From assembly GCA_963708985.1 (NCBI GenBank), contig CAVPUQ010000001.1:406663-470662 (forward strand): a DNA stretch of 64,000 nucleotides, given 5' to 3'. The first letter of the stretch is position 1. Each line of letters begins with the position of its first letter. Positions 11,809 to 28,813 of the stretch are shown piece after piece. This DNA comes from an uncultured Actinomycetes bacterium. GTDB lineage: Bacteria > Actinomycetota > UBA4738 > HRBIN12. Under the pieces are notes generated by a model. That model did no database searches, was not told the origin of the DNA, and saw nothing but the letters and a program-made list of their open reading frames with translations. Made by a program: the position numbers and the translations under genes.

Positions 11809-13190
11809 ATGGCGAACGATGCCGCCGGCCCCCCGGGCCTCGAGCCCGGTGTCCGGCAGCCGTGGTCCAGGTCCGAGCGACGGGTGCCCCGCGTCGTCCT
11901 GCAGCCCGTGCAGTCCTTCCTGCTGACCGAGGCCGCCGGCGGCGTCCTGCTGTTGATCGCGACGGCGATCGCGCTCGTGTGGGCGAACTCGCCGTGGGCT
12001 GCGTCCTACGACCGCCTGTGGCACACGGAGCTGACGATCGGGCTCGGGCGTTGGCACCTGTCGTACGACCTCGGCCACTGGGTCAGCGACGGGCTTGATG
12101 ACGCTGTTCTTCCTCGTCGTCGGTCTGGAGATCAAGCGCGAGATGCTCACGGGCGAGCTCCGCGATCCCCGGGCGGCGGCGGTCCCCGTCCTCGCGGCGA
12201 TCGGGGGCATGGTCGTGCCCGCCCTCCTGTTCGTGGTCGTGCCCGCGGGCGGGACCGACGCCCGCGGGCTGGGGGATCCCGATGGCGACCGACATCGCGT
12301 TCGCCGTCGGCATCCTCACGCTCGTCGCGCGCTCGGCACCGCCCGGCCTGAAGCCGTTCCTGCTCACGCTCGCGATCGTCGACGACATCGGGGCCATCCT
12401 CGTGATCGCGCTCTTCTACTCGGGGGGCGTGAGCGCGTCGCCGCTCCTGATCGCCGGCGCCGCGTGCGCCGCGATCGTGGTCCTCCAGCGCATCCACATC
12501 CGGGCGGCGTCGATGTACGTGCTGCTGGGCGTCGTCATCTGGATCGCGACCGCCGAGTCCGGGGTGCATCCGACGATCGCCGGCGTCGTGCTGGGGCTGC
12601 TCACCCCGGCCGTCCCGTTCCAGCGACCGAAGACCGTGAGCCTCGAGGCCCACCGCGTCGCGGACGAGACGGTCGACGACCCCACGCCGCCCGATGTCGA
12701 CGCTCCCTACTGGCTCTACCTGGCCGGGCTGTCACGCGAGGCGGTCTCGCCGCTCGCGCGCGTCGAGTCCCTGCTGCACCCGTGGGTGAGCTTCGTGATC
12801 GTGCCGCTGTTCGCGCTCGCGAACGCCGGAGTGGACCTGTCGGCGAGCGCGCTCAAAGACGCAGCGACCTCCCCGCTCGCGCTCGGGATCCTCCTCGGGC
12901 TCGTGGTCGGCAAGCCCCTCGGCATCACCCTCGCGACGTGGCTGGCGGTCCGCGGCGGTCTCGGCCGATTGCCGCTCGGCGCCGACTGGCGCCACGTCAT
13001 CGGCGTCGGCACGGTCGCCGGCATCGGGTTCACGATCTCGCTGCTGATCACGGATCTCGCGTTCGAGGGCTCCGCGCTCCTGCAGGCGGCGAAGGCCGGC
13101 ATCCTTGCGGCGTCGGTGTTGGCGGCCGTCGTCGGCGCGTTGATCCTCCGCGCGAGACCCGTCCGCGAGGCACGGACCCCTGGGGGTTAG
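11809..13190 (+). CDS. nhaA: Na+/H+ antiporter NhaA (frameshifts near 12095 and 12270)
   Basis: [72 protein letters not shown]. Confidence 0.95.
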
Positions 13191-15087: not shown

Positions 15088-17349
15088 TTGTTCGGTGTCC
15101 TGGCCCAGGAGGGCGGCCCGATCGAGGCCGTCTTCGGCAACTTCGAGACCAACGCGCTGTGGGTGATCCTCGTGATCTCGCTGTGCGCGCTGGCCTTCGC
15201 CTACTACCTCGTACGTGAAGTGCTCGGCGCCCCTGAGGGCACCGACAAGATGAAGGAGATCGCCCGAGCGATCCAGGAGGGCGCGAGCGCATACCTGAAG
15301 CGTCAGTTCAGCACCCTCGGGATCTTCCTCGCGCTCCTGACGGTGCTGCTGTTCATCGTGCTCCCGACGCCGGCGAACGCCGCGCACTCGGCCTTCTCGA
15401 TCCGGTTCGGGCGCTCGCTGGCATTCATCTTGGGCGCGGTGTTCTCGGCGACGACCGGGTTCGTGGGGATGTGGCTCGCCGTCCGCGCGAACGTCCGCAC
15501 CGCGAATGCCGCTCGCGAGTCCGGCCTGCGCAAGGCGATGCGGATCGCGTTCCGCGCCGGCGGCGTGGCCGGCATGTTCACGGTCGGCCTCGGGCTCTTC
15601 GGCGCGACGGTCATCCTGCTCGTCTACAAGCAGCGATGCGACGTCGGTGCTGGTCGGCTTCGGGTTCGGTGGCGCGCTCCTCGCGATGTTCATGCGGGTC
15701 GGCGGCGGCATCTTCACGAAGGCCGCGGACGTCGGCGCGGACCTCGTCGGCAAGGTCGAGCAGGGCATCCCGGAGGACGACCCGCGCAACGCGGCCACGA
15801 TCGCGGACAACGTCGGGGACAACGTCGGTGACTGCGCCGGGATGGCGGCCGACCTGTTCGAGTCCTACGAGGTCACCCTCGTCGCCTCGTTGATCCTCGG
15901 CGCTGCGGCGTACAGCGGCTCCGAGGTCGGTGCGATCGCCGGCGTGATGTTCCCGCTGTTCGTCCGCGCGGTCGGCGTCATCACCTCGATCATCGGGATC
16001 CTCGCGGTCTCGCCACGCTCCGAGGAGGAGCACGGCATGAAGGCCATCAACCGCGGGTTCTTCCTGTCGGCGGCGGTCTCGGCGGCGGCCGTCTTCGTGA
16101 TCTCGAGCATCTACATGAAGGACGTCCGGCCGGCTGTTGCCGTCCTGTTCGGGCTGATCCTCGCGAGCGTGATCCAGGTGCTCACGCAGTACTTCACCGA
16201 CACGAAGCACAAGCCGGTGCAGGAGATCGCCGAGGCCGACGCAGACGGGCCCGGCGACGACGATCCTGTCAGGTTTCTCGGTCGGCCTGGAGTCCACCGT
16301 CTGGTCGCTCATCGTGATCGTCGGCGCGGTGGTCGGCGCGTTCCTGCTCGGCGATTCGACGGCCGAGCGCCTGTACTTCATCTCGCTCGACCGGCATGGG
16401 CATGCTCACGACCGTCGGCGTCATCGTCTCGATGGACACCTACGGACCGATCTCGGACAACGCGCAAGGCATCGCCGAGATGTCGGGCGAGTTCGAGGGC
16501 AAGCCCGCGAAGATCCTCGGGGGCCTGGACGCCATCGGGAACTCGACCAAGGCGATCACGAAGGGCATGGCGATCGCGACCGCGGTGATCGCGGCGACCT
16601 CGCTGTTCGGCTCGTTCGAGGAGGCCCTGAAGGAGGCCGGGTTCGACTTCGACGGCATCCGCGTCGACCGACCCGACGTGCTCGTCGGGCTGCTCGTCGG
16701 CGGCTCGATCGCGTTCTTGTTCTCCTCGCTCGCGATCCGCGCCGTCGGCCGTGCTGCCTCACAGGTCGTGGTGGAGGTCCGCAACCAGTTCCGCGACCAC
16801 CCCGGCATCATGACCTTCGAGGAGAAGCCGGACTACGCGAGCGTGGTCGACATCTGCACGAAGACCTCGCTGCGCGAGCTGATGACCCCCGGTCTGCTGG
16901 CGGTGCTCTCACCGATCATCGTCGGGTTCTTCCTCGAGGGCCGAGGCGCTCGGCGCGTTCCTCGCCGGCGCGATCCTCACCGGCCAGCTCCTCGCGGTCA
17001 TGCTCTCCAACTCGGGCGGCGCGTGGGACAACGCGAAGAAGTACATCGAGGAGGGCCACTACGGCGGCAAGGGCTCGGAGCGGCACAAGGCCGCCGTCAT
17101 CGGCGACACGGTCGGCGATCCGTTCAAGGACACGGCCGGTCCGGCGCTGAACCCGATGATCAAGGTGATGAACCTCGTCGCGCTGCTCCTCGCGCCGCTC
17201 GTGGTCGAGCACGCGGACGACACGGTGCTGCGGATCGTGGTCGGCCTCGTCGCGGTGGCCGTGGTCGGCGCGGCGGTCTACGTCTCGAAGACGCGGAAGT
17301 CCGAGCTGATGACGTCGCCCGACCGAAGGAGGAGGCCCTCGTCTCGTAG
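15088..17349 (+). CDS. hppA: Membrane-bound H+-translocating pyrophosphatase, K+-independent type (frameshifted)
   Basis: [72 protein letters not shown] (Lys variant), [23 protein letters not shown]. Confidence 0.95.
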
Positions 17350-17382
17350 GGGCGGCGGCCTCGTCGGGGAGCGTGGGGTGGC

Positions 17383-17752
17383 ATGAGCGTGCTCGAGCGG
17401 CGTGCGCCGCTTCTTCCACCGCATGGCGGAGAGCGACGAGCAGCGCCTGCGCGAGGAGATACAGGCGTGGGCCTCGAGCATCCCCGGCACCGCGACGATC
17501 GCCGACGCACCGAGCCGTACGCCGGTGAAGCTCGCCGGGGTCGTGAAGCGCATCACGGTCCACCCGGAGCACGGGCTCGAGGCGCTCGAGGCGCTGCTCA
17601 CGGACGGGACGGGCGAGATGTCCGTGCTGTGGATGGGACGCAGGGCGATCCCGGGGCTCACGCTCGGTACCAGGGTCGTGGTCCAGGGTGTCGTGGGCGA
17701 GCAGCGGCAGGGCCGCCGCATGGTGAACCCGAGCTTCGAATTCAGCGCCTGA
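17383..17752 (+). CDS. OB-fold nucleic-acid-binding domain protein (RecG-wedge-like; Rv2694c-type)
   Basis: [31 protein letters not shown]...MVNPSFE. One indel near 17400. Confidence 0.8.
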
Positions 17753-17798: not shown

Positions 17799-18515
17799 CT
17801 AGATCGCGCCGGCGCTGCCGCCCTCGGGGGACGGGCTACCGCCCGGCATCCCCTCGCCGACGATGGCGAGTCGAAGAGCCGGCTCGGCCTCGGCGGAGGA
17901 AAGCGCGAGGACCTCGTCGCCCGCGGTGACCACCGTCTCGGGCTGGGGGATGACCACGTGGCCCTCGCGGAGCACCGCGACGATCGCGGCGTCCGTGGGC
18001 AGGCGGAGCTCATACAGCGGGCGGCCCGCGTTCGGCGAGTGATCCGGGATCGTGACCTCGACGAGCGCGATCCGTCCGCCTTCCAGGCGGAGCAGCCGCA
18101 CGAGGTCGCCGACCGTCACGGCCTCCTCGACCAGCGCGGTCATCAGGTGCGGGATCGAGACCGCCTGGTCCACTCCCCACTGCTCGCTGAACATCCACTC
18201 GTTCCGTGGGTGGTTCACACGGGCGAGCACGCGGGGCACTCCGAACTCCTGCTTCGCGAGCAGCGAGATGACCAGGTTGTCCTCGTCGTCACCGGTCGCG
18301 GCGACGACGACATCCGCCGTGCGGAGCTCGGCCTTCTCGAGCACCCAAGGCTCGCACGCGTCGCCGAGGATGAACTCCACATCTGGCGCCCAATCCACCG
18401 CGATCTCCAGGTGCCGAGGGTCCTGCTCGACGAGGACCACGTCGTGGCCCCGCGCCTTCAGGTCGCCGGCGAGGTGACGCCCGACCGCCCCCGCCCCCGC
18501 GATCACGGTGCGCAT
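17799..18515 (-). CDS. trkA: TrkA-family K+ uptake regulatory protein (RCK_N + RCK_C)
   Basis: MRTVIAGAGAVG, GDACEPWVLEKA, ATGDDEDNLVISLLAKQEFGVPRVLARVN; intact ORF. Confidence 0.93.
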   Translation of the reverse strand: MRTVIAGAGAVGRHLAGDLKARGHDVVLVEQDPRHLEIAVDWAPDVEFILGDACEPWVLEKAELRTADVVVAATGDDEDNLVISLLAKQEFGVPRVLARVNHPRNEWMFSEQWGVDQAVSIPHLMTALVEEAVTVGDLVRLLRLEGGRIALVEVTIPDHSPNAGRPLYELRLPTDAAIVAVLREGHVVIPQPETVVTAGDEVLALSSAEAEPALRLAIVGEGMPGGSPSPEGGSAGAI

Positions 18516-19174
18516 CAGTGCTCTCCGATCGGGGTCATGAGCTCGTCGAGCAGGTCCATCGCGTCCTTGTGCACGATGACGTGCACGGTGTCGCCGTCTT
18601 GGAACGTGCTGGTCGGGACCGGGATGAAGCCGGATCCGCCGCGGTCGACGCCGGCGACGAGCACCTTGCCCTCGGCGGCGAGCTCGGAGACCTGCTTGCC
18701 GACCAAGTGCGGAGGCACGGCGAGCCGCATACGGAAGAGGTCGCCGCCCGCCAGGCTCTCACGGATCTCCTCACGCGGGTGGGTGAGCATGAGGATCATC
18801 TGCTTCACGCCCCAGCGCGTGGTGGAGACCGTGGGGATGTTCAGACGCTCGTAGATGTCGGCCCGGTAGGGGTCGTAGATCCTGGCGATGACCATCGGCA
18901 CGCGGTAGTGCTCGCGCGCCACTCGCGCCGAGACGATGTTCGAGTTGTCGCCGCTCGAGACCGCGAGGAAGGCGTCGGCATCGCGGATCCCGGCCTCCTC
19001 GAGCACGCTGCGGTCGAAGCCGAGCCCCACGACGGTCTTCGCCTTGAAGTCGGGCGGAAGGCGATCGAACGCGCTCGCGTTCTTGTCGATCACCGAGACC
19101 CGGTGTTCCGCCTTGCAGAGCTCCTGCGTCAGCAGGATCCCCACGCGGCCGCAGCCCATGATGACGACCTTCAT
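18515..19174 (-). CDS. trkA: TrkA-family K+ uptake regulatory protein
   Basis: MKVVIMGCGRVG, VSSGDNSNIVSARVARE, ARIYDPYRADIYERLNIPTV; stop overlaps start of the second trkA. Confidence 0.93.
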   Translation of the reverse strand: MKVVIMGCGRVGILLTQELCKAEHRVSVIDKNASAFDRLPPDFKAKTVVGLGFDRSVLEEAGIRDADAFLAVSSGDNSNIVSARVAREHYRVPMVIARIYDPYRADIYERLNIPTVSTTRWGVKQMILMLTHPREEIRESLAGGDLFRMRLAVPPHLVGKQVSELAAEGKVLVAGVDRGGSGFIPVPTSTFQDGDTVHVIVHKDAMDLLDELMTPIGEH

Positions 19175-19181
19175 CGGTGCG

Positions 19182-21611
19182 TCAGCGTACTGCCTGCCCG
19201 GTGGGCACGTCAGCGGGCCGAGCGGGCGGGAGGTGCTTCGTGAAGAAGTACGGCACCACCGCGATGTCCACGTGCTCGTAGCGTCCGAGCGCCTGGAGGA
19301 TCCGTCGGCTGGTGCGGTCATGCAGGAGCCGGCCGCGGAGCTGGGCGTGGTCGCGCCGGGGCATGACGACCGTGATCTCGCGGCCACGCCCCACGAGCTC
19401 GGCGACGTACCGCTCGAGCGCCCTCGCGACGTGGCGATCCCAGCACTCGATCACGTCGAGCTGAACGGGCACGCCGAGTTCCATCCATCGCCTGATGAGC
19501 GTCTCCTGCTTGTCGTGGTCGACGGCGGCATGCACGGCCCAGACATCGTCCGCGCCGAGCGACAGCGCGTACCGGATCGCCCGGAACGTCGCCCGGTCCG
19601 CTCGGTCCACCAGGACGACGACCTCGTGCGCGAACCGTGGGGACAGACGCAAACGCTCCTTGCCGTCCCGGACCTCGGTGATCGGATGCCCCGCGCCAGG
19701 GTGGTCGCGGACAAGCGTGATCCGCGCGTTCACGTTCGGGAGCAGGACCCTCGCGAGACGGGCGCCCTCGCGCCACCGGCGCAGCCGTTCGCTGGTGCCC
19801 ATCTGGGCAGGACCGGGGAGGATCACGTTCACCTCGGCTCCCGATGGGAGCGCCGCGACGTAGCCGGCGATCGCGCTGGACGGGTCACCCTCGCCCCGGA
19901 CGACGTAGAGCGGCACGCCGCTCACGAGATCCAGCCAGGCACGCTCCAGCTCGGCGGTCGTGGCAGGATCGTCGCTCGAGGTGCACGGCGCGGACCTCGG
20001 CCGCCTTGATGGTCTTCGCGTACTGGAGGGCATGCGTCGTCTTGCGGTCGAGCGCGTCGACGAGCACGATCGCGACGGGTGGCCCCTGTCGACTGGTGTC
20101 GAAGGGCTCGAGCTCCTCGTCGAGCTCCTCGTGCTCCCGCTCGTATCGGCGGTTCAGCCGGACGAGGAGCCACACCATGATCGGCACGAACACCATCACG
20201 GCCCACGCGCCGTGCGAGAACTTCGTGAACGCCACGACGACGGCCACCACGGCGGTCGTCAGCGCACCGACGGCGTTGATCGCGAGGCCGTGCCGCCACC
20301 CCGGCTCTCGGACTCGGAGGTGGCGCTTCGCCATGCCCGCCTGCGAGAGCGTGAACGACGTGAAGACGCCGATCGCGTAGAGCGGGATCAGGCGGTGCAC
20401 GTCGGCACGGAACGCCACGACCAGGCCGGTTGCGGCGATCGCGAGCCCGACGATCCCGTTCGAGAAGACCAGTCGATGGCCCCTCGTCGTGAACTGGCGA
20501 GGCATGAACGCGTCGCCGGCGGCGAAGTTCGCGAGGCGCGGGAAGTCCGCGAACGAGGTGTTCGCGGCAAGGATGAGGATCAGGGTGGTCGCGACCTGCA
20601 GGCAGAGGAACAAGGCGAACCCGACCGAGCCACGCGCCGAACACCACGCGACCCGACCTGCGGAGATCACGGTCTTCGTCCTCCGTCGGCACGACCTGGA
20701 GCCGATACGCCAGGAACGATAGGCCGAGGAACATCACGCCGAGCAGGCTCCCCATCCACATCAGCGTCGTTCGAGCGTTCTTCCATTCGGGCGGCTTGGA
20801 ACGCGGGGATGCCGTTCGAGATCGCCTCGACGCCGGTCACCGCAGCGCCCACCCGAGGCGAACGCGTGGAGGACGAGGAAGATCCCGATCGCACCGGTCG
20901 TTCCCGAGCGCTTCGTCCGGGAGCGGGAGCGGGTGCAGGGTCCCGTGGCGGCCGCGGATCGACGCCCGTGACCGAGCAGGACGAACATGGTCACGATGAA
21001 GAAGTACGTAGGGATCGCGAACATGCGGCCCGATTCCCGCACGCCGCGCAGGTTGCCCCAGGCGATGAACCAGATGCACAGCACCGAGATCTCGACCCGG
21101 TACGGGAAGAGCCCCGGAGCGGCGGAGGTGACGGCTGCCACGCCGGCCGAGATCGAGACGCTGACGGTCAGCACGTAGTCGGTGAGCAGGGCGACGCCGG
21201 CGACCTGGGCCGGGACGAGTCCGAAGTTGTCCTTGGTGACGATGTACGCGCCGCCCGCGCTGGGGTACGCCTTGATCGTCTGACGGTAGGAGAACAGCAA
21301 GATCGCGAGGACCGTGAGGATCGCCGAACGTCACGGGCATCAAGAGCGAGAATGCCGCGACGCCCGACGATGGGCACCCCGACCTTCAGGATCTCCTCGG
21401 TGGCGTAGGCGACGGAGGAGAGGTTGTCGGACGCGAAGACCGCGAGCGCCGTGCGGCTTGCCGAGCCGTTCGTGCGCGAGGTGCGAGGTCGGCAGGACCG
21501 GCCCGAGGATCGGCCGCTTAGGGTAGGCGCCGGGGCCGATGCCCTCGCGGCGAGCCTCCCTTCGTCGTAGTCCGGAACTCGGAGTCTTGTCGAGGTGGCC
21601 ATCACGGGCAT
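19182..21611 (-). CDS. KimA-like APC/KUP-family K+/H+ symporter #1 with duplicated cytoplasmic domain (frameshifted)
   Basis: VFASDNLSSVAYATEE, SYRQTIKAYPSAGGAYIV, DYVLTVSVS, GNLRGVRESG, TGVEAISNG, ANTSFADFPRL, two C-terminal alpha/beta repeats. Confidence 0.88.
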
Positions 21612-21644
21612 ACGCTCTCCATCCACGAGGTGTCGGGCTCGACC

Positions 21645-21704
21645 GCGTAAGCGCTGCGTGAAGGCGGCGGGCTGACCGTGAAGAAGCCGTAAAGGAGCTA
21701 CCGT
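21645..21704. promoter_or_regulatory. Two pairs of 11-bp-spaced direct repeats (candidate KdpE/OmpR-type boxes) and -10 of leaderless kdpD-like gene
   Basis: CGTAAG(21646)/CGTGAAG(21657) and CGTGAAG(21677)/CGTAAAG(21688); TACCGT 21699-21704 lies 6 nt before ATG 21711. Confidence 0.55.
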
Positions 21705-21710
21705 GAGGGC

Positions 21711-23158
21711 ATGGCGCGCGACATCCTGCGTCCGATGCGCCCTCGACCAGTCCTCGCGATCGTGTCGCCGTCGTCTGCCCCCCGGTGCGACGTTGCTCGG
21801 ACTGCTGTTCGAGACCGCCGAGGACGCCGGCGTGGCCTCCTTCATCCTGGCGGTGGTGGGCGCGGCCGTCGGCGGTGGTCTGGAGCGGCCTCGCTGCGTC
21901 GCTGGTCTCCTTCCTGGGCCTGAACTTCTTCTTCACCGAGCCCGCACCACACGTTCCGCGTCGATAAGACCGAGGACCTGATCGCCCTGTTGGTGTTCCT
22001 GATCGTCTCCACGATCGTCGGGACGTTGCTCGCCCGGGCACTGTCGGAGCGTCAGCGCGCGACTCGGCGCGAGCGGGAGGCGGCGCGTCCTGCAGTACAT
22101 CGCGTCGAAGCTCCTTGCCCCGGATCCCCTCGATCGTCGGCTCGGCGATCTCGCGCGGCTCCTGGTCGAGCCGTTCGACCTCGTGCGGTGCGAGATCCGA
22201 CCGGGTCAGGACGAACGGGTCGAGGTGCGCGTGCGGGCTCCGGCCCGGGGAGGGGGAGCGCATCGAGCGTCCCGATGCTCTCGGACGGGAGCGCCGGGAC
22301 GCTGGTCGTCGTCAGGCGCGATGACATCGGTCCCCCGGTCGTACCGAGCCGGACCGCACCTCTCGAGGCCTGCGCGCGGCAGATCTCGGTCGCGCTCGAG
22401 CGCGCCAGGTTCGATGCCGCGATCGAGGCCGCGCGGGTGTCCTCGGAGGCGAGCCAGATGCGGGCCGCGCTCTTCTCCTCGGTCACGCACGACCTGCGCA
22501 CACCGCTGTCGTCGATCAAGGCGAGCGTGACCAGCCTGCTCGACGAAGGAGTCGAGCACGACGACGGCGCAGGAGCGAGAGCTCCTCCAGACGGTCTTGG
22601 AGGAGACCGATCGCCTGAACCGTTGGTCGGCAACATCCTCGACCTCGCGAAGGTGAGGGCCGGAGCCCTCGTCCCCGCGAAGCAGCTCACGTCGATCGAG
22701 GACGTGCTCGAGTCCGTGCTCCATCGGATGGCCCGCAGCTCTCCAGCGGGTCTCGGTGCGAACGATGGTTCGGCCGGATCTTCCGGACGTGATGATGGAC
22801 GCCATGCAGGTCGACCAGGTCTTCACCAACGTGCTCGAGAACGCGGTGCGCTTCACGCCTCCAGGCAGGTGACGATCCAGATCGCGATCGTCCCGTGGCG
22901 GGACGGGGTCCAGGTGCGCGTCGCCGACCAGGGGCCGGGCATCCCGTCTGAGGAGCGCGAACGCGTCTTCGAGCCCTTCTACCGTCCGAGGCCGCGGCGG
23001 CCGAGGCGGGAGCGGTCTCGGACTTGGCCATCGCCCGGGCGATCGTGCGGGCGCACGGCGGCCGGATCCGGATCGAAGGGCTCGCCGTCGGGCGGGGCCG
23101 CGGTTGTGTTCGAGCTGCCCGCGGACGCGCCGTCGATCGTGCAGGAGCCGGTGCGTGA
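21711..23158 (+). CDS. KdpD-like sensor histidine kinase lacking the N-terminal KdpD and USP domains (DUF4118-GAF-HisKA-HATPase; many frameshifts; end approximate, up to 23243)
   Basis: ASLVSFLGLNFFFTEP (DUF4118), RAALFSSVTHDLRTPLSSIKAS, VFTNVLENAVRF, VADQGPGIP...RVFEPFYR. Confidence 0.82.
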
Positions 23159-23849
23159 CGAGGGTCCTGGTGGTCGACGACGAACCGCAGATCCGGCGCG
23201 CACTCCGGACGAGCCTGCAGGCTCACGGGCTACGACGTCCTGACGGCGGGAACCGGCCGCGAAGGGGTTGAGCGTGCGGCCGACTCGGCACCCGATCTCG
23301 TGTTCCTCGACCTCGGGCTCCCCGACCTCGACGGGACCGAGGTGATCCGTCGGATCCGGGCCGTTCTCCGAGGTGCCGATCATCGTGCTGTCGGTGCGCG
23401 ACCAGCAGGCCGACAAGGTCGCGGCGCTCGATGTCGGAGCCGACGACTACGTGACGAAGCCGTTCGGCATGGAGGAGCTGCTCGCGCGCCTGCGGGCCGC
23501 CCTGCGTCGCGCGCACCCCGAGGAGCCGGCGCCGGCGGTGCAGCGCTTCGGCGACGTGGAGGTCGATCTCGCGAAACGGCTCGTGACCCGGCGCGGCGAG
23601 CGCGTCCATCTGACGCCGACGGAGTACGGGCTCCTCGAGGCGCTCGTCGCGAACCCGGGCAAGCTGCTCACGCACCAGTGGCTGCTCCGCAAGGTGTGGG
23701 GGCAGGGCTACGGCCAGGAGAGCCACTACCTGCGGGTCTACGTCCGCGCGCTGCGCAGGAAGCTCGGCGACGACGCCGCGGCGCCCGCGGCTGATCCTGA
23801 CCGAGCCCGGCGTCGGCTACCGCTGGATCGCCGATCCGTCACGTCCTAG
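23155..23849 (+). CDS. kdpE: KdpE-like OmpR-family response regulator (frameshifted)
   Basis: MTRVLVVDDEPQIRRAL, DLGLPDLDG, GADDYVTKPF, HLTPTEYGLL, GKLLTHQWLLRKVWG, YLRVYVRALRRKL, LILTEPGVGYR. Confidence 0.88.
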
Positions 23850-23910
23850 CTGGTCGCGGGTCACTAGGATACGCCCTTCGGATGGGCTCGACGCAAGACG
23901 GAGACCACGC

Positions 23911-26219
23911 ATCGACCTCCGGCGGCTGCTGAAACGGCTGCTCGTCGGTCGGGCGATGTCGAGTCCACCGTCTCGAGCACACGCTGCTGCCGAAGGTCCT
24001 CGCGCTGCCGGTGTTCGCATCGGACGCGCTTTCGTCGGTGGCCTACGCGACGGGCGAGATCTTCATCGTGCTGCTGTCGGCAAGTCTGGCCACGAAGCAG
24101 CTACGTCATGCCGATCGCGATCGCGATCGCGATCTCATGGCGATCGTCGTCACGTCGTACCGGCAGACCGTTCGCGCGTACCCGCGGGGCGGTGGCGCGT
24201 ATCTCGTGACGAAGGACAACCTCGGAACGCTCCGCCGGCCTGATCGCCGCCGCCGCGCTGCTCGTCGACTACATGATGACGGTCACCGTTTCCATCGTCG
24301 CCGGGGTGTTCGCCATCGGCTCGGCCTTCCCGTTGGCGAACGACCATCGCGTGCTCCTGTCCATCGGCTTCGTGTGGTTCGTCACGGTCGCGAACCTACG
24401 CGGCACCCGCGAGTCCGGGCTGCTGTTCGCGATCCCGACCTACGGCTTCGTCCTCTCGATCCTGACGATGATCGGCGTCGGCCTGGTCAGGTGCGTCGGT
24501 GGGTGCCCTGCCACCGAGGCCGTGGAGCCGATCCAGGCCATCGCGACGACGGCCGGCCCGGTCACGCTGTTCATCATCCTGCGCGCGTTCGCCTCGGGGG
24601 CGACCGCTCTCACCGGAGTGGAGGCCATCGCAGACGGGGTCCCCGCGTTCCGCCGCCCCCAGGCTCGCAACGCGGCCCAGACCCTCGCGATCATGGCGAC
24701 GATCGGGATCACGATGTTCCTCGGGATCTCGTGGCTCGCGACCCACATCCCCGGGACGACCGCCAGCGAGGTCCGCTCGGTCCCGGCCCAGATCGCCGGC
24801 GCGGTCTTCGGAGGCGGGATCGGCTTCTACATCGTCCAGATCTTCAGCGCCGCGATCTTGATCCTTGCCGCCAACACCGCGTTCCAGGACTTCCCGCGGC
24901 TCTCCTCGATCCTCGCGCGCGATCGATTCATGCCGCGGCAGTTCATGAACCGTGGCGACCGCCTGGTCTTCTCGAACGGGATCGTCGTCCTCGCGGCGGT
25001 GTCCTCGCTGATGATCTACGCGTTCGATGCCAGCCTCACCAGGCTGATCCAGATGTACGTCATCGGTGTGTTCACGTCGTTCACCCTCTCCCAGAGCGGG
25101 ATGGTCCTCCACTGGTTGAAGGAGCGTCGCAAGGGTCCCGACGCGCCCAAGGATTGGAAACGCTCGATCGTCAACAACGTCTTGGGGGCGACGACGACCG
25201 GGATCGTGCTGCTGGTCGTCACGTACACGAAGTTCCACGACGGCGGCTGGCTCTCGATAGCCTTCATGGCGCTCCTGCTGCCGGTGTTCCTTTCCGTCCA
25301 CCGTCACTACTCGTCGATCATCGACGAGCTGCGCCGAGGGCGGGTCACCGTCGGTGGCACGGGCGTGAACCACGTCGTTCTGCTCGTCACCCAGCTCGAC
25401 GAGGCGACGTCCGAGGCGGTTGGGTACGTGCGCTCGATCAGGCCCAGGGACCTGCGCGCGGTCTATCCGACCGCCAGCGGTGTGGTCCCCCTCGATCTCC
25501 AGGAGCGGTGGCGGCGGTTCGCGGTCGGCGCGCCGGACCTGGAGCCGCTCCCGGTCGAGGGAGGCGACCTCCTCGCGGGCACGCGGGCGTTCGTCCACGG
25601 GATCGAGTGCCGGCATCGGGACTTCATCACCGTCGTCATCCCAGAGGTCTTGCGAGAGCAAGGACTCCTCGCCTACCTGCTGCGGAACCGCTCGCTCGTG
25701 CGGCTGAAGGCGGGCCTGCTCCGCGAGCCGAACGTCGTCGTCGCCGACGTGCCGTTCCCAAGCGGTGGGAAGGTCGCGGTCGGAGCCGACGGTCGCGCGC
25801 TCATCCCGCAACGCACCGTGGCGCTGGTGTTCGTCTCGGCGATCCACGACGCGACCGTCCGGGCCGTGAACTACGCGCAGTCGCTCGGAGCGAGCGAGAC
25901 GCGCGCGATCTACTTCGACATGGACCCCGATCAGGAGTACCGGATCGAGCGCGAGTGGGCGGAGAAGGGGCTGCAGATCCCGCTGGACATCGTCGAGGCG
26001 GCCTTCCGCGACCTGACGGGACCGATGCTCGACGAGGTCCGGCGCTTCACCGAGCGTCCCGACACGCTCGTCATGGTCGTGATCCCCGAGCTCGTGGTGT
26101 CGAAGTGGCGGCACCTGTTGCTGCACAACCAGAACGCCCTGTTCGTGAAGCGGCTGATGCTGTTCGAGCCGAAGGTCGTGCTGGCGTCGGTGCCGTTCTC
26201 GCTCGAGACCGACACGTGA
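23911..26219 (+). CDS. KimA-like APC/KUP-family K+/H+ symporter #2 with duplicated cytoplasmic domain (start approximate; frameshifts in first 350 nt)
   Basis: LKRLLVGR, VFASDALSSVAYATGE, SYRQTVRAYPRGGGAYLV, NLRGTRESG, TGVEAIADG, ANTAFQDFPRL, C-terminal VIPELVVSKWRHLLLHNQ...VVLASVP. Confidence 0.9.
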
Positions 26220-26776
26220 TGGATCGGCGGACCGCCCTCGAGCTCTGCCGTGCGAAGACGCTGAAGGAGACGACCGTGCGGCACCTCGTGTCGGTCGAGG
26301 GCGTCATGCGGGCCCTCGCACGCCGGTTCGGGGAGGACGTGGACCTGTGGGGGCTCACGGGGATGTTCCACGACCTCGACCAGGACGTGACGGGGGAGGA
26401 CGGCGTCGGCCACGCGGAGGTCGCCGCCGGCTGGCTCCGGGAGGCGGGGGTCGACGAGCAGGTGGTGAACGGCGTGCTCGCGCACGCGTACCCCGAGTAC
26501 CGCACCGACCTCATGTCGAGGGCGGTCGTGCACGCCGACGCGGTCGCGGGCCTCCTCGTGGCAGCTGCGCTCGTCCGGCCCGAGCTCGCGGTGGGGATGA
26601 AGGTCTCGAGCGTGAAGAAGAAGCTGAAGGAGAAGGCCTTCGCGCCCGGCGTGAACCGCGACGAGGTGCTCGGGGTCACCGAGGGGATCGGCCTGCCGCT
26701 CGAGGAGTTCCTCGCCGTCGCGATCGAAGGCCTGCAGGAGGTCGCGCCGGAGATCGGCCTCACGCCCGAGGCGTGA
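26219..26776 (+). CDS. HD-superfamily predicted hydrolase (COG2316-like)
   Basis: RH..SVE, LWGLTGMFHDLD, GH, VLAH, ADAVAG, SSVKKKLKEKAFAPGVNR. ATG overlaps the KimA #2 stop. Confidence 0.85.
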   Translation: MDRRTALELCRAKTLKETTVRHLVSVEGVMRALARRFGEDVDLWGLTGMFHDLDQDVTGEDGVGHAEVAAGWLREAGVDEQVVNGVLAHAYPEYRTDLMSRAVVHADAVAGLLVAAALVRPELAVGMKVSSVKKKLKEKAFAPGVNRDEVLGVTEGIGLPLEEFLAVAIEGLQEVAPEIGLTPEA

Positions 26777-27371
26777 TGAGCTCGATCGGCAGCAGCTCCA
26801 CGGCGTAGGCGTCGAGCATCGCGTTCTCGACCGGTCGCACCCCGAGCGCGTCTCCCACCGCGCTCGGCTGGTCGGCGTGGCGCTCGCACAGGGGCAGGAG
26901 GTCACCACCGCGGTCGAGCACGCGGGCGGGGACGCCCGGGAGCTCGGCCCGCCACAGGCACCACGAACAGACGAGGCGCAGCCGCGCGGGGTAGGCGAAC
27001 TCGGCCCGGTAGCCCTTCGTGTGCTCGATGACGCGGCCCCACATCGAGATCGTGCCGATCACGCCGGCCGCCCGGTTCGCGTGCCGGAGCCGCTCCGGAT
27101 CCTTCATCGCGTGGATGCCGCACGTGCAGCCGGGCTCGGGGCTCCGGTGGAACTCTGCGAGCTCGGGGTTGTAGATCATGTACTCGCGCGTGTGCGAGCC
27201 CGAGCACGTCGCGTGGATCGGCACTCCGGGCTCCCAGTCCGAGCGCGGCGTCGTCGGCGCGATCCGCAGCGCCCCGTTCGAGCGCCGGTGCAGCCGCCAG
27301 GCGCGCCAGCCCTCGATCGGCTCGGTCGAGCGCTCGTGCGGGTAGGAGCCGAAGAACGCGCGCAGGGCCAT
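26760..27371 (-). CDS. Cys/His-rich hypothetical protein
   Basis: Intact ORF with good codon pattern: GWRAW, HATC, HRSPEPGCTCGIHA, WGRVIEHTKGYRAE, CSWC, LCERH. Leaderless -10 TACGCT. Confidence 0.75.
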   Translation of the reverse strand: MALRAFFGSYPHERSTEPIEGWRAWRLHRRSNGALRIAPTTPRSDWEPGVPIHATCSGSHTREYMIYNPELAEFHRSPEPGCTCGIHAMKDPERLRHANRAAGVIGTISMWGRVIEHTKGYRAEFAYPARLRLVCSWCLWRAELPGVPARVLDRGGDLLPLCERHADQPSAVGDALGVRPVENAMLDAYAVELLPIELITPRA

Positions 27372-27432
27372 GTCACCAGCGTACGCCGAGGCTCGGGAAG
27401 CGGGCACGGCGACTCGCGCCTATCATCGCGGC

Positions 27433-28813
27433 GTGCCGTACCGGTTCCGGACGATCATCGAGCCGTTCCGCATCCACTCGGTCGAGCCGCTCCGGTTCCT
27501 CACCGAGGACGAGCGGCGGGCGAAGGTCCGCGAGGCCGGCTACAACCTGTTCAACCTCCACGCCGACGACGTCCTCATCGACCTGCTCACCGACTCGGGT
27601 ACCGGCGCGATGAGCCGGGACCAGTGGGCGGCGATCCAGCGCGGCGACGAGAGCTACGCGGGCTCGCCCTCGTGGTTCGCGTTCCTCGAGGCCGTGCAGG
27701 AGCTGTTCCCGTTCCGTCACGTGATCCCTACGCACCAGGGGCGAGCGGCCGAGAAGATCCTGTTCAGCGCGATCGCCGGTCCCGGCAAGGTCGTCCCGAA
27801 CAACACGCACTTCGACACGACGCGCGCCAACGTCGAGTTCACGGGCGCCGAGGCGCTCGACCTCGTGATCTCCGAGGGCCGCGAGCCGCAGACGATCCAC
27901 CCGTTCAAGGGCAACATGGACCTCGGCGCGCTCGAGCGGTTGCTCGAAGAGCGTGCCGCCGACGTGCCGGTCGTGTTCGTCACGATCACGAACAACTCCG
28001 GCGGCGGGCAGCCGGTCTCACTCGAGAACCTCCGCGGTGTCCGAGCGCTCTGTGACCGGTTCGGCGTGCCGCTGTTCCTGGACGCCTGCCGGTTCGCCGA
28101 GAACGCCTGGTTCATCAAGCTCCGCGAGGCCGGTCAGGCACGAGCGCCCGATCCCCGACATCGTCCGCGAGATCGCAGGCCTCGCCGACGGCATGACGAT
28201 GAGTGCGAAGAAGGACCCGCTCGCGAACATCGGCGGCTGGCTCGCGATGAACGACGACGCTCTCGCGGAGCAGTGCCGCAACCTGCTGATCCTCACCGAG
28301 GGCTTCGTGACGTACGGCGGTCTCGCGGGTCGCGACCTGGAGGCTATCGCCCAGGGCCTGCGCGAGTGCGTCGACGAGCACTACCTGCGGTACCGGATCC
28401 GCTCGACCGAGTACCTGGCCGAGGCGCTGGACCGCGCCGGCGTGCCGATCGTGAAGCCGGCCGGAGGGCACGCCGTGTACCTGGACGCCCGAGCGCTCCT
28501 GCCGCACATCCCGCCGCTCGAGTACCCGGGCCAGGCGCTCGCGGTCGCGCTCTACGAGGCCGGCGGCATCCGCGCGTGCGAGATCGGCACGGTGATGTTC
28601 GGCCGCCACCCCGATGGGACCGAGGAGCCGGCCGCGATGGACCTCGTCCGCATGGCGATCCCTCGCCGCACGTACACGCAGAGTCACGTCGACTACGTGA
28701 TCGAGGTCGTCACGGCCGTCGCCGAGCGCGCCTCGGAGCTCCGCGGCTACCAGATCGTCGAGCAGCCGCCGCAGCTCCGGCACTTCACCGCCCGGTTCGA
28801 GCCGCTCGGCTAG
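27433..28813 (+). CDS. tnaA: Tryptophanase (PLP beta-eliminating lyase; frameshift near 28140)
   Basis: EPFRIHSVE, IDLLTDSGT, THQGRAAE, MSAKKD (PLP Lys). IRACEIG and LRHFTARF match tryptophanase-type rather than TPL-type (ERG, RFF) residues. Confidence 0.88.

What the first reader, a model, noticed from the sequence alone, without database searches (positions are those of the whole stretch)
19182..26219. KdpDE-like two-component system with no Kdp pump, flanked by two KimA-like transporters
Seen: the kinase begins directly with DUF4118 (no KdpD N-terminal ATP-binding or USP domain); KdpE follows; KimA #1-trkA-trkA is divergent and KimA #2 lies downstream. Established: KdpDE normally activates kdpFABC; KimA is a KUP-family K+/H+ symporter inhibited by c-di-AMP. 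Inference: an alternative K+ regulon in which KdpE drives kimA/trkA, and the transporters might supply the sensory input lost from KdpD.
Basis: partly seen in the sequence, partly recalled or inferred. Interest (0 to 1): 0.72.

Follow-up and report, generated by a model that had tools for sequence, protein, structure and literature searches.

The report
KdpDE-like switch wired to KimA importers
An uncultured soil-type actinobacterium that has no Kdp potassium pump keeps a shortened relative of the pump's sensor pair. That pair sits between two KimA-type potassium importers and two TrkA regulators, with a conserved four-repeat docking site, which points to an untested way of controlling potassium uptake.

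Summary
On the minus strand: trkA-trkA (17799-19174) and KimA1 (19182-21602). On the plus strand: a DUF4118/HisKA/HATPase kinase (21711-23158), a KdpE-type regulator (23155-23849) and KimA2 (23882-26219).

About 40 small indels, mostly +1 insertions, break KimA1, the kinase, the regulator and the start of KimA2. They look like long-read assembly errors rather than gene decay.

The Kdp pump is truly absent. In two congeners an 8.5-kb Kdp module sits in a gap that is empty here (27406-27416).

This pair is not an orphaned KdpDE. Kdp-positive relatives carry their own Kdp-linked kinase/regulator plus a KdpD N-terminal protein right beside this locus. A tree separates 83 KimA/Trk-linked kinases from 9 Kdp-linked ones (support 99).

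The KimA1-kinase spacer holds four phased CGTRAA repeats (11/21/11). They are conserved in six genera and match 16 of 22 bases of the footprinted Mycobacterium smegmatis KdpE site.

The lineage also lacks TrkH and any c-di-AMP synthase.

Most likely this is a KdpDE paralogue that controls KimA/TrkA. No experiment has tested it, and I found no paper describing it. The idea that the transporters replace "lost" sensing is not supported.

The parts
17799..18515 (-). trkA_b: RCK protein of 238 aa with TrkA_N + TrkA_C; last gene of the KimA1 operon
   Evidence: tblastn gives 92% identity to the G001 orthologue with no indels. Pfam was run on the G001 orthologue.
18515..19174 (-). trkA_a: RCK protein of 219 aa with TrkA_N + TrkA_C. 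It starts 7 nt after the KimA1 stop and its end overlaps the trkA_b start.
   Evidence: Pfam TrkA_N 2.9e-24 and TrkA_C 1.3e-10. 91% identity to G001 with no indels.
19182..21602 (-). KimA1: KimA/KUP-type K+/H+ symporter homologue of about 806 aa with a doubled cytoplasmic tail. The frame is broken in the deposited sequence.
   Evidence: The match is split over two frames with two TGA codons. There are about 14 frameshifting indels against G004, 13 of them insertions. The frame-guided reading is 80% identical with no substitution-made stops. Orthologues are intact in all relatives examined.
21646..21693 (.). Four direct repeats CGT(A/G)A(A/G) at 21646, 21657, 21677 and 21688, forming two KdpE-type recognition sites. 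Read on the KimA1 strand each site is TTTACG-N5-TTCACG-like.
   Evidence: The CGT and A positions are invariant and the spacing is fixed at 11/21/11 (20 in the window) in 11 genomes of 6 genera. A strict four-box array is found in 27 of 78 loci and at least one strict dimer in 56 of 78. The two sites are the two best PWM hits in the whole genome. Site 21676-21697 matches 16 of 22 bases of the footprinted M. smegmatis KdpE site CCGTAAAGAAACCATCAAGGCC.
21699..21704 (+). TACCGT, a -10-like hexamer (TANNNT) ending 7 nt before the kinase start codon. This suggests a leaderless kinase-regulator-KimA2 transcript (inference).
   Evidence: CTA(G/C)CGT is conserved at this position in the family-level alignment. 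The generic sigma-70 scan found nothing.
21711..23158 (+). HK1: kinase of about 478 aa with DUF4118 (4 TM helices), a GAF-like region, HisKA and HATPase_c. It is a KdpD C-half paralogue with no KdpD_N or Usp. The frame is broken in the deposited sequence.
   Evidence: 17 frameshifting indels against G001, with substitutions in the order pos3 > pos1 > pos2. The read-through is 72% identical with no internal stops, and Pfam on it finds all three domains. The best PDB match is the E. coli KdpD kinase core, 6LGQ_C, at 5.7e-33. It belongs to the KimA/Trk-context clade.
23155..23849 (+). RR1: KdpE-subfamily OmpR-type response regulator of about 229 aa, with a GTGA overlap onto the kinase stop. Four small insertions break the frame.
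   Evidence: tblastn finds it in four frame pieces at 84-94% identity. The read-through is 88% identical to G001. The nearest PDB entries are KdpE 6LGQ/4KNY/4KFC at 4e-68 to 1e-65, with MtrA next at 1e-46. The NCBIfam KdpE model scores 246 bits, below its 325-bit cut-off.
23882..26219 (+). KimA2: KimA-type K+/H+ symporter homologue of about 778 aa, starting 32 nt after the regulator stop and probably co-transcribed with it. The stretch 24273-26219 is intact; the first 400 nt carry four indels.
   Evidence: The G001 orthologue matches 6S3K at E=6.9e-124. 88% identity to G001. Indels are visible in the alignment.
27406..27416 (.). Empty site. In congeners G007 and G008 an 8.46-kb Kdp module occupies this intergenic gap: a KdpD_N-Usp protein, kdpC, kdpB, kdpA, kdpF, and the module's own kinase HK2 and regulator RR2.
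   Evidence: Window 26039-27405 aligns to L108 1-1368, and window 27417-28808 aligns to L108 9825-11215. G001 carries a toxin-antitoxin-like pair of about 650 bp at the same spot.

Best explanation
The locus is a self-contained potassium-uptake regulon of an uncultured Actinomycetota lineage. Two divergent operons, KimA1-trkA-trkA and HK1-RR1-KimA2, share a 109-nt control region holding two tandem KdpE-type recognition sites (four phased CGTRAA repeats).

HK1 keeps the membrane/GAF/kinase half of KdpD, the part to which K+ sensing has been assigned in E. coli. RR1 keeps the DNA-contact residues of KdpE. Together they form a distinct, conserved paralogue clade linked to KimA/TrkA genes, not to kdpFABC.

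Proposed mechanism:
- At low K+, HK1 phosphorylates RR1.
- RR1~P binds the four boxes.
- It activates KimA1-trkA-trkA, because the repeats read in that operon's direction, 44-95 nt upstream of its start codon.
- It also regulates its own, probably leaderless, operon including KimA2, because boxes 3-4 overlap that promoter's -35 region. The sign of this autoregulation is unknown.
- The two TrkA (RCK) proteins have no TrkH partner in this lineage and may gate KimA1.

Shown here: gene identities, synteny, the clade split, the conserved operator, and the precise absence of the Kdp module. Inferred: the K+ signal, RR1 binding to the boxes, the direction of regulation, and the TrkA-KimA partnership. 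The broken reading frames in the window are most likely consensus errors of a long-read assembly.
For: 1. Identity.
- KimA2 matches KimA 6S3K at 6.9e-124.
- The eight K+-coordinating KimA residues (listed in bioRxiv 10.1101/2023.07.05.547876) are all present in the G001 KimA1 and KimA2 sequences (read by eye).
- HK1 has DUF4118-HisKA-HATPase.
- RR1 is closest to E. coli KdpE. R193, R200 and T215, shown to be needed for DNA binding (PMC3264566), are conserved in that alignment.

2. Synteny.
- 77 of 88 HK1-type kinases are divergent from a KimA gene and 5 more from TrkA.
- Regulator-KimA2 gaps are 10-40 nt in several genera.

3. Paralogy.
- Kdp-positive relatives carry a second kinase/regulator pair divergent from kdpFABC, plus a KdpD_N-Usp protein or a full-length KdpD, next to this locus.
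- Identities: HK1 vs HK2 37%, RR1 vs RR2 56%, RR1 orthologues between genera 79%.
- The tree splits 83 KimA/Trk-context from 9 Kdp-context kinases with SH-aLRT 99.

4. Operator.
- Four boxes with invariant cores and spacing in 11 genomes.
- The two halves are the two top PWM hits in the 2.96-Mb genome.
- Same 6+5+6 geometry as the E. coli site TTTATA-N5-TTTACA.
- 16 of 22 bases match the footprinted M. smegmatis KdpE site.
- Similar half-sites occur in relatives' kdp promoters.

5. Kdp absence is real.
- No KdpA, KdpC or KdpD_N in the genome.
- An exact empty site exists.
- KdpA is present in 2 of 9 genomes of the genus and 27 of 121 of the order, while DUF4118 kinases are in 97 of 121.

6. 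Context.
- TrkH 0 of 31 genomes and the c-di-AMP synthase (DAC) domain 0 of 31, with positive controls.
- No riboswitch in the window.

7. Indels look technical.
- They are almost all 1-2 nt, insertion-biased and not at homopolymers.
- Substitutions keep the pos3 > pos1 > pos2 pattern.
- Frame-guided readings have no stops.
- The conserved upstream pyrophosphatase gene is hit too.
Against: - There is no expression, binding or transport data. Every regulatory step is inferred from comparative genomics.
- The strict four-box array was found in only 27 of 78 loci. Many distant loci show one dimer or none under my pattern.
- Similar half-sites at kdp promoters mean RR1 and RR2 specificities may overlap, so cross-talk is possible.
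- No convincing -10/-35 for KimA1 was identified.
- The repeats are inverted relative to the kinase operon, so the sign of autoregulation is open.
- If the indels are real, this particular strain has lost the whole system.
- The assembly is rated only 73.7% complete, although the empty site makes the absence of Kdp independent of that figure.
Confidence: 0.7

Rival explanations
1. Orphaned relic: this is the ordinary KdpD/KdpE of a kdpFABC operon that was deleted, left behind with no dedicated target.
For: - Kdp is absent here, yet it lies next to the same locus in relatives.
- Annotation pipelines name these kinases KdpD.
Against: - Kdp-positive relatives have their own separate HK2/RR2, or a full-length KdpD/KdpE, in addition to HK1/RR1.
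- That pair is missing together with the pump at the empty site.
- HK1 forms a separate clade with support 99.
- HK1/RR1 is kept in about 70 or more Kdp-negative genomes of the order.
Confidence: 0.04
2. The frame breaks are real. In this strain a 4.3-kb tract (about 19970-24240) has been inactivated by clustered small insertions, so the regulon is a fresh set of pseudogenes.
For: - The indels cluster: trkA and most of KimA2 have none, while the kinase has 17 in 1.45 kb.
- They are not at homopolymers.
- Reads could not be inspected.
Against: - There are no nonsense substitutions, and the codon-position bias is normal.
- Insertions heavily outnumber deletions in KimA1, the regulator and the start of KimA2, and there are no large deletions. 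This is unlike the deletion-biased decay usually described for bacterial pseudogenes (my own knowledge).
- The conserved pyrophosphatase gene upstream carries single-base insertions.
- Even the operator spacer is one base short of all ten relatives.
- A 10-contig genome rated 73.7% complete is typical of error-prone long-read bins.
- Other notes on this genome reached the same view (these are leads only).
Confidence: 0.1
3. Neighbourhood without wiring: HK1/RR1 only autoregulates, or controls unlinked genes in response to another cue (osmolarity, pH, Na+/NH4+). It sits among K+ genes merely because these lineages pack ion-homeostasis genes into one island.
For: - The Kdp module, KimA, TrkA and a membrane pyrophosphatase are all clustered.
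- Boxes 3-4 overlap the kinase promoter, which fits autoregulation.
- The stimulus is untested.
Against: - The divergent KimA< HK1> junction is kept even where the rest of the island is rearranged.
- The repeats are oriented toward KimA1, as in E. coli kdpFABC.
- No other comparable tandem site exists in the genome.
- KimA2 follows the regulator after 10-40 nt in several genera.
Confidence: 0.12

Closest known systems
KdpD/KdpE two-component system controlling kdpFABC (E. coli; Mycobacterium smegmatis, PMC5401905)
   Same: - The kinase shares KdpD's TM(DUF4118)/GAF/DHp-CA half, and its best PDB match is the KdpD kinase core.
- The regulator is closest to KdpE and keeps R193, R200 and T215.
- The operator has 6-bp direct repeats 5 bp apart. 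One site matches 16 of 22 bases of the M. smegmatis KdpE footprint.
- The layout is the same: divergent transporter operon and kinase-regulator operon.
   Different: - No KdpD_N serine-kinase domain and no Usp domain.
- No kdpFABC in the genome.
- A separate clade from Kdp-linked kinases.
- The regulator scores below the NCBIfam KdpE equivalog cut-off (246 vs 325 bits).
- There are two tandem recognition sites rather than one.
- The neighbouring targets are KimA/TrkA genes.
Split KdpD: separate KdpD_N/Usp serine-kinase chain plus TM/GAF/DHp-CA histidine-kinase chain (Silberberg et al. 2024, PMC11018627)
   Same: - HK1 has exactly the domain set of the histidine-kinase chain of split KdpDs.
- Kdp-positive relatives here do carry the split form next to the pump.
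   Different: - HK1 has no serine-kinase partner chain and no pump in this genome.
- In relatives the split KdpD's kinase chain is the paralogue HK2, not HK1.
Bacillus subtilis KimA (YdaO), a KUP-family K+/H+ symporter (PDB 6S3K, 8B70/8B71)
   Same: - Strong full-length homology, with all eight K+-coordinating residues present.
- Membrane domain plus cytoplasmic tail.
   Different: - The proteins are about 780-810 aa because the cytoplasmic domain is duplicated.
- There is no c-di-AMP riboswitch upstream, and the lineage has no c-di-AMP synthase.
- Control therefore appears to come from a two-component system, possibly with TrkA proteins.
Mycobacterial CeoB/CeoC (half-size TrkA proteins) with the adjacent permease gene Rv2690c
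   Same: - A pair of TrkA_N+TrkA_C genes sits next to a large permease gene.
- M. tuberculosis transposon data group ceoB with Rv2690 (PMC12216072).
- No TrkH is found here.
   Different: - No adjacent two-component system is described there.
- That Rv2690c is KimA-like is from my memory and was not tested here.
Streptomyces coelicolor SCO5871/SCO5872, listed as KdpD/KdpE-type
   Same: Listed as a classic kinase plus an OmpR-type regulator named KdpD/KdpE in a two-component-system review table (PMC9739842). S. venezuelae has two KimA-like proteins (PMC10117811).
   Different: - Orthology and neighbourhood were not tested here; this is a lead from memory.
- By my own knowledge Streptomyces makes c-di-AMP; this lineage appears not to.

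Membership tests
KdpD sensor kinase (Kdp regulator) | N-terminal KdpD domain (PF02702, the serine kinase acting on KdpB) plus a Usp domain | tested here: not met
   Absent from the intact orthologue and from the window read-through. In the own genome PF02702 gives only a weak sub-threshold hit on another contig.
KdpD sensor kinase (Kdp regulator) | TM (DUF4118) / GAF / HisKA / HATPase_c half | tested here: met
   DUF4118 4.4e-27, HisKA 7e-14, HATPase_c 1.4e-28, and a weak GAF match. The same domains appear on the window read-through. H-box, N-box, G1 and G2 residues are invariant in the alignment.
KdpD sensor kinase (Kdp regulator) | Genomic linkage to kdpFABC | tested here: not met
   No KdpA or KdpC in the genome. 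The syntenic site is empty. 82 of 88 HK1-type kinases are divergent from KimA or TrkA.
KdpD sensor kinase (Kdp regulator) | Groups phylogenetically with Kdp-linked kinases | tested here: not met
   Kdp-context kinases (9) and KimA/Trk-context kinases (83) fall on opposite sides of one branch, SH-aLRT 99. This was a quick search with no bootstrap.
KdpE response regulator | OmpR-type receiver plus winged helix, closest to KdpE, with DNA-contact residues R193, R200 and T215 | tested here: met
   KdpE structures are the best PDB hits, about 20 orders of magnitude in E-value ahead of the next family. The three residues are conserved in that alignment.
KdpE response regulator | Reaches the NCBIfam KdpE equivalog cut-off | tested here: not met
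   NF007820 is the best model, but it scores 246.4 bits against a 325-bit cut-off.
KdpE response regulator | Binds direct repeats upstream of its target operon and activates it at low K+ | not testable with these tools
   Only the conserved KdpE-like boxes are shown. Binding and activation need EMSA or reporter assays.
KimA / KUP-family K+/H+ symporter | Full-length homology to KimA, including the cytoplasmic domain | tested here: met
   6S3K at E=6.9e-124, with both the membrane and the C-terminal domain aligned.
KimA / KUP-family K+/H+ symporter | K+-coordinating residues D36, Y43, D117, T121, S125, T230, E233, Y377 | tested here: met
   All eight are present in the G001 KimA2 alignment to KimA and in the KimA1 sequence. 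The check was by eye, not by structure.
KimA / KUP-family K+/H+ symporter | Transports K+; inhibited by c-di-AMP | not testable with these tools
No DAC-domain cyclase is found in 31 of 31 genomes and no riboswitch in the window, so c-di-AMP control is unlikely.
Trk/Ktr K+ uptake system | TrkA/KtrA RCK subunit (TrkA_N + TrkA_C) | tested here: met
   Both genes carry both domains.
Trk/Ktr K+ uptake system | TrkH/KtrB membrane subunit (PF02386) | tested here: not met
   0 of 31 genomes, including the own genome; the control search detected it in 11 of 14 named genomes.

The most novel reading that the evidence does not exclude
In this c-di-AMP-free, TrkH-free actinobacterial order, potassium uptake has been rebuilt around KimA-type symporters.
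- A KdpDE-derived two-component system supplies the K+-responsive transcriptional control that riboswitches and c-di-AMP provide in Firmicutes.
- The 'orphan' half-size TrkA pair, the counterpart of mycobacterial CeoB/CeoC, is the cytoplasmic gating ring of KimA1 and docks on its duplicated tail.

If true, this would also explain what actinobacterial 'Trk' systems without TrkH act on.
Probability: 0.3. Interest if true: 0.8.

Novelty: new variant of a known kind. Interest (0 to 1): 0.6.

Why it matters
KdpD/KdpE is the textbook single-target sensor for the Kdp pump, and KimA is known only under c-di-AMP control. This locus shows a conserved sister system of KdpDE attached to KimA and TrkA genes in many uncultured Actinomycetota, in genomes that appear to have neither c-di-AMP synthesis nor TrkH.

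If the wiring holds, three things follow:
- It adds a second output class to Kdp-type signalling.
- It corrects a widespread automatic annotation, since these kinases are routinely named KdpD.
- It gives a concrete candidate partner for the TrkA/CeoBC proteins of Actinobacteria, whose membrane component is unknown.

The 48-nt operator and the two transporters are small, clonable parts, so the idea can be tested directly.

Tried and rejected
- Orphaned KdpDE. My first working idea after finding kdpCBA beside the locus in G016 was that the pump had been lost and its regulator left behind. I rejected it once HK2/RR2 and KdpD_N were found with every Kdp module and the tree split the two kinase sets.
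- Pseudogene decay. I considered it for the broken frames and ranked it low, on the grounds of codon-position bias, insertion bias, stop-free guided readings and damage to neighbouring housekeeping genes.
- Divergent KimA1. Its membrane part looked oddly divergent from G001. The cause is that it is closest to G004 and L030 (82% nt), so the gene is a mosaic among congeners, not decayed.
- Rfam found only a tRNA in the window and no c-di-AMP riboswitch.
- The generic promoter/terminator scan gave nothing useful in this 70% GC DNA.
- Wrong-frame ORFs between kdpA and KimA2 in G016 gave no Pfam hits. The right frames did.
- The third-best operator-like site in the genome (contig C4, near 207775) lies between another regulator and a glycosyltransferase and is a single dimer. 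I did not pursue it.
- NCBI taxonomy of the related loci is uninformative: unclassified Actinomycetota, with one labelled Solirubrobacterales.
- Literature searches for a KimA-linked KdpDE-like system, and for SCO5869-5874, found nothing.
- (pulling DNA through an alignment) was unnecessary, because the loci were already available to scripts.

Full report
**What is in the sequence.**
The window is about 70% GC. It lies on contig C1 of a 2.96-Mb, 10-contig genome rated 73.7% complete. Around the finding I read the following genes.

- Minus strand: trkA_b (17799-18515), trkA_a (18515-19174) and KimA1 (19182-21602).
- Plus strand: a histidine kinase, here HK1 (21711-23158); a response regulator, RR1 (23155-23849); and KimA2 (23882-26219).

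The supporting matches are:

- KimA2's orthologue matches Bacillus subtilis KimA (PDB 6S3K) at E=6.9e-124 over both the membrane and the cytoplasmic domain.
- Both TrkA genes carry TrkA_N and TrkA_C.
- The intact congener kinase has DUF4118 at residues 20-121, a weak GAF match, HisKA and HATPase_c. It has no KdpD_N or Usp domain.
- RR1's nearest solved structures are E. coli KdpE (4e-68 to 1e-65). The next family, MtrA, is at 1e-46.
- The NCBIfam KdpE model is RR1's best hit but stays below its cut-off, 246 against 325 bits.

The trkA genes lie just outside the stated coordinates.

**The frames are broken, probably by assembly error.**
Raw ORFs give only fragments of the domains. tblastn finds each gene spread over several frames. 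Counted against relatives, the frameshifting indels are:

| Gene | Frameshifting indels | Comparator |
|---|---|---|
| KimA1 | about 14 (13 insertions, 1 deletion) | G004 |
| HK1 | 17 | G001 |
| RR1 | 4 | G001 |
| KimA2, first 400 nt | 4 | G001 |
| Both trkA genes and the remaining 1.9 kb of KimA2 | 0 | G001 |

Five observations argue that these are technical errors:

- Substitutions keep the pattern expected under selection. For HK1 the mismatch rates are 0.37 at codon position 3, 0.21 at position 1 and 0.12 at position 2.
- Readings guided by a relative's codons contain no stop codons. They are 72% (HK1), 88% (RR1), 88% (KimA2) and 80% (KimA1) identical to congeners, which is in the range seen between intact congeners.
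- The events are nearly all 1-2 nt, mostly insertions, and not at homopolymers.
- The conserved membrane pyrophosphatase gene upstream, 90% identical in DNA to G001, also carries single-base insertions.
- Even the operator spacer is one base shorter than in all ten relatives.

Notes from other agents on this genome describe similar patches and reached the same view. I treat those as leads only. I put about 10% on the indels being real.

For searching only, I read the kinase through its breaks. Pfam then finds DUF4118, HisKA and HATPase_c in the window's own copy. I give counts rather than a list of corrections.

**Kdp is truly absent.**

- KdpA (PF03814) has no match in the genome.
- tblastn with KdpA, KdpC and KdpD_N from a relative finds nothing. 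KdpB finds only distant P-type ATPases.
- The absence does not depend on assembly completeness. Window 26039-27405 and 27417-28808 align to the two flanks of an 8.46-kb stretch in congener G007.
- That stretch holds a KdpD_N-Usp protein, kdpC, kdpB, kdpA, kdpF and a second kinase/regulator pair.
- The window has an 11-bp empty site (27406-27416) in that intergenic gap. G001 carries a small toxin-antitoxin-like pair there.
- KdpA occurs in 2 of 9 genomes of the genus and 27 of 121 of the order.

**This is not an orphaned KdpDE.**
In every Kdp-positive relative I opened, the Kdp pump comes with its own regulator:

- G016, G007 and G008 have a DUF4118 kinase (HK2) and regulator (RR2) divergent from kdpFABC, plus a stand-alone KdpD_N-Usp protein.
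- G053, G037 and G088 have a classical full-length KdpD followed by KdpE.

In all six genomes just named the HK1/RR1 pair is also present alongside, flanked by KimA and/or TrkA genes (KimA1-trkA-trkA and KimA2 in five; TrkA and KimA2 in G037). Two further Kdp-positive relatives were opened. G018 shows the same layout. In G013 no intact HK1/RR1 reached the hit filters.

- HK1 and HK2 of one genome are 37% identical, and RR1 and RR2 are 56% identical. RR1 orthologues from different genera are 79% identical.
- I labelled 100 kinase sequences by genomic context rather than by similarity. The tree places 83 KimA/Trk-context kinases and 9 Kdp-context kinases on opposite sides of one branch, with SH-aLRT 99. 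This was a quick search, and the program warned that long branches meet inside the Kdp group.
- DUF4118 kinases occur in 97 of 121 genomes of the order, KdpA in 27, and true KdpD_N in 30.
- When the pump is missing at the empty site, HK2, RR2 and KdpD_N are missing with it.

The window's pair therefore belongs to a separate, conserved paralogue clade.

**Why the N-terminal domain is missing.**
Silberberg et al. 2024 showed three relevant things (PMC11018627):

- KdpD's N-terminal domain is an atypical serine kinase that phosphorylates KdpB.
- The proposed K+-sensing sites lie in the TM/GAF region.
- The two activities are often encoded on separate chains.

A kinase with no KdpB to control has no use for that domain, and HK1 keeps the part credited with sensing K+.

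**Conserved neighbourhood.**
A profile of seven HK1 orthologues retrieved 80 species-level loci, all from uncultured Actinomycetota bins.

- The commonest order is trkA< trkA< KimA1< HK1> RR1> KimA2>. More distant loci show KimA< HK1> RR1> trkA> trkA>.
- Of 88 HK1-type kinases, 77 are divergent from a KimA gene and 5 from TrkA. Four sit at contig ends.
- Regulator-KimA2 gaps are 10-40 nt in several genera and 32 nt in the window, which suggests one transcript.
- KimA1, trkA_a and trkA_b are 7 nt apart or overlapping.

**The operator.**
The 109-nt KimA1-HK1 spacer (21603-21710) contains CGTAAG (21646), CGTGAA (21657), CGTGAA (21677) and CGTAAA (21688).

- In 11 genomes of six genera and two families the CGT and following A are invariant. 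The spacing is fixed at 11/21/11 while the spacers vary freely.
- A strict four-box pattern is present in 27 of 78 loci and a strict dimer in 56 of 78. My rough estimate of the chance expectation for a dimer is about 0.003 per locus.
- A weight matrix built from these sites ranks the two window sites first and second in the whole genome.
- Read on the KimA1 strand each site is TTTACG-N5-TTCACG. This is the same six-plus-five-plus-six geometry as the E. coli KdpE site TTTATA-N5-TTTACA (PMC3264566).
- Window 21676-21697 (CCGTGAAGAAGCCGTAAAGGAG) matches 16 of 22 bases of the DNase-footprinted Mycobacterium smegmatis KdpE site CCGTAAAGAAACCATCAAGGCC (PMC5401905).
- RR1 keeps R193, R200 and T215 of KdpE.
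- Relatives' kdp promoters carry similar half-sites, for example CATGAAG-N4-TGTGAAG. The two regulators may therefore overlap in specificity.

**Likely mechanism (inference).**

- The repeats point toward KimA1 and end 44 nt before its start codon, as KdpE sites do for kdpFABC. I therefore expect RR1~P to activate KimA1-trkA-trkA.
- On the other side, a conserved TA(G/C)CGT hexamer ends 7 nt before the kinase start codon. Boxes 3-4 fall at about -18 to -34 of that presumed leaderless promoter.
- The kinase-regulator-KimA2 operon is thus probably autoregulated, with unknown sign.

**Lineage context.**

- TrkH/KtrB (PF02386) is absent from all 31 genomes sampled around the window.
- The diadenylate cyclase domain (PF02457) is also absent from all 31, 19 of which are of high quality. 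Both control searches detected their family in 11 of 14 named genomes; the DAC control set includes Corynebacterium glutamicum.
- No riboswitch is found in the window.
- The KimA homologues here therefore cannot be under the c-di-AMP control known from Bacillus, and the TrkA pair has no canonical membrane partner.
- The constant KimA1-trkA-trkA linkage makes KimA1, which has a duplicated cytoplasmic tail, the obvious candidate partner. This remains speculation.

**Novelty.**

- Pipelines already call these kinases KdpD.
- Split KdpDs are described in the literature.
- A Streptomyces review lists SCO5871/5872 as KdpD/KdpE-type.
- I found no paper describing a KdpDE paralogue attached to KimA/TrkA.
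- Other agents of this scan have noted the same wiring in at least eight other genomes. That shows it recurs, but it is not independent proof.

I class it as a new variant of a known kind.

the empty-site proof that the Kdp module is absent; the context-labelled tree; the match to the M. smegmatis footprint; and the absence of c-di-AMP synthesis and TrkH from the lineage.

Noticed in passing
window 15088-17752 (+): A membrane-bound H+/Na+-pyrophosphatase gene ([17 protein letters not shown] motif) lies just upstream of the trkA genes. It is 90% identical in DNA to G001, yet single-base insertions split it over alternating frames.
   Followed up: partly
window 27406-27416; L011 about 12110-12758; L108 1369-9824: One intergenic gap is a variable-cargo spot within the genus. 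It is empty here, holds an RHH plus PemK/MazF-like toxin-antitoxin pair in G001, and holds the whole 8.46-kb Kdp module in G007 and G008.
   Followed up: partly
own genome and 30 relatives: No diadenylate cyclase (DAC, PF02457) and no TrkH/KtrB (PF02386) in any of 31 genomes, with positive controls. The order appears to be free of c-di-AMP and TrkH.
   Followed up: partly
L113 (G093:C1:1148001-1160000): A one-contig, 96%-complete relative without KdpA still has a full-length KdpD (KdpD_N fused to a Kdp-clade kinase) and regulator. These are divergent from a KimA1-like gene and sit next to a second HK1/RR1 pair. A true KdpD seems to have been re-used next to KimA.
   Followed up: no
L011 3923-6343 and 8601-10934; window 24273-26219: The KimA homologues are 777-812 aa because the cytoplasmic C-terminal domain is present twice in tandem. 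The internal repeat is 27% identical, and only the second copy aligns to the KimA tail.
   Followed up: partly
window 19970-21600: The membrane-domain part of KimA1 is closest to G004 and L030 (82% nt), whereas all the flanking genes are closest to G001. The gene looks mosaic among congeners.
   Followed up: partly
window 21663-21676: The spacer between boxes 2 and 3 is 20 nt here and 21 nt in all ten aligned relatives. This is probably one more single-base consensus error.
   Followed up: no
own genome C4:207775-207793: The third-best operator-like site in the genome (GCGTAAGGGTTCCGTAAGG) lies between a divergent response-regulator gene and a glycosyltransferase-like gene (identified only from its first residues). 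It resembles the kdp-promoter site of G007.
   Followed up: no
L025 8186-8353 (G016): Upstream of kdpA there are two small hydrophobic ORFs in tandem: kdpF and a second membrane peptide of about 27 aa.
   Followed up: no
L012 about 4811-4851 (G007): The regulator-KimA2 gap of G007 carries a 26-nt insertion with a GC-rich hairpin that is absent from the window and from G001. It could be an attenuator or terminator.
   Followed up: no
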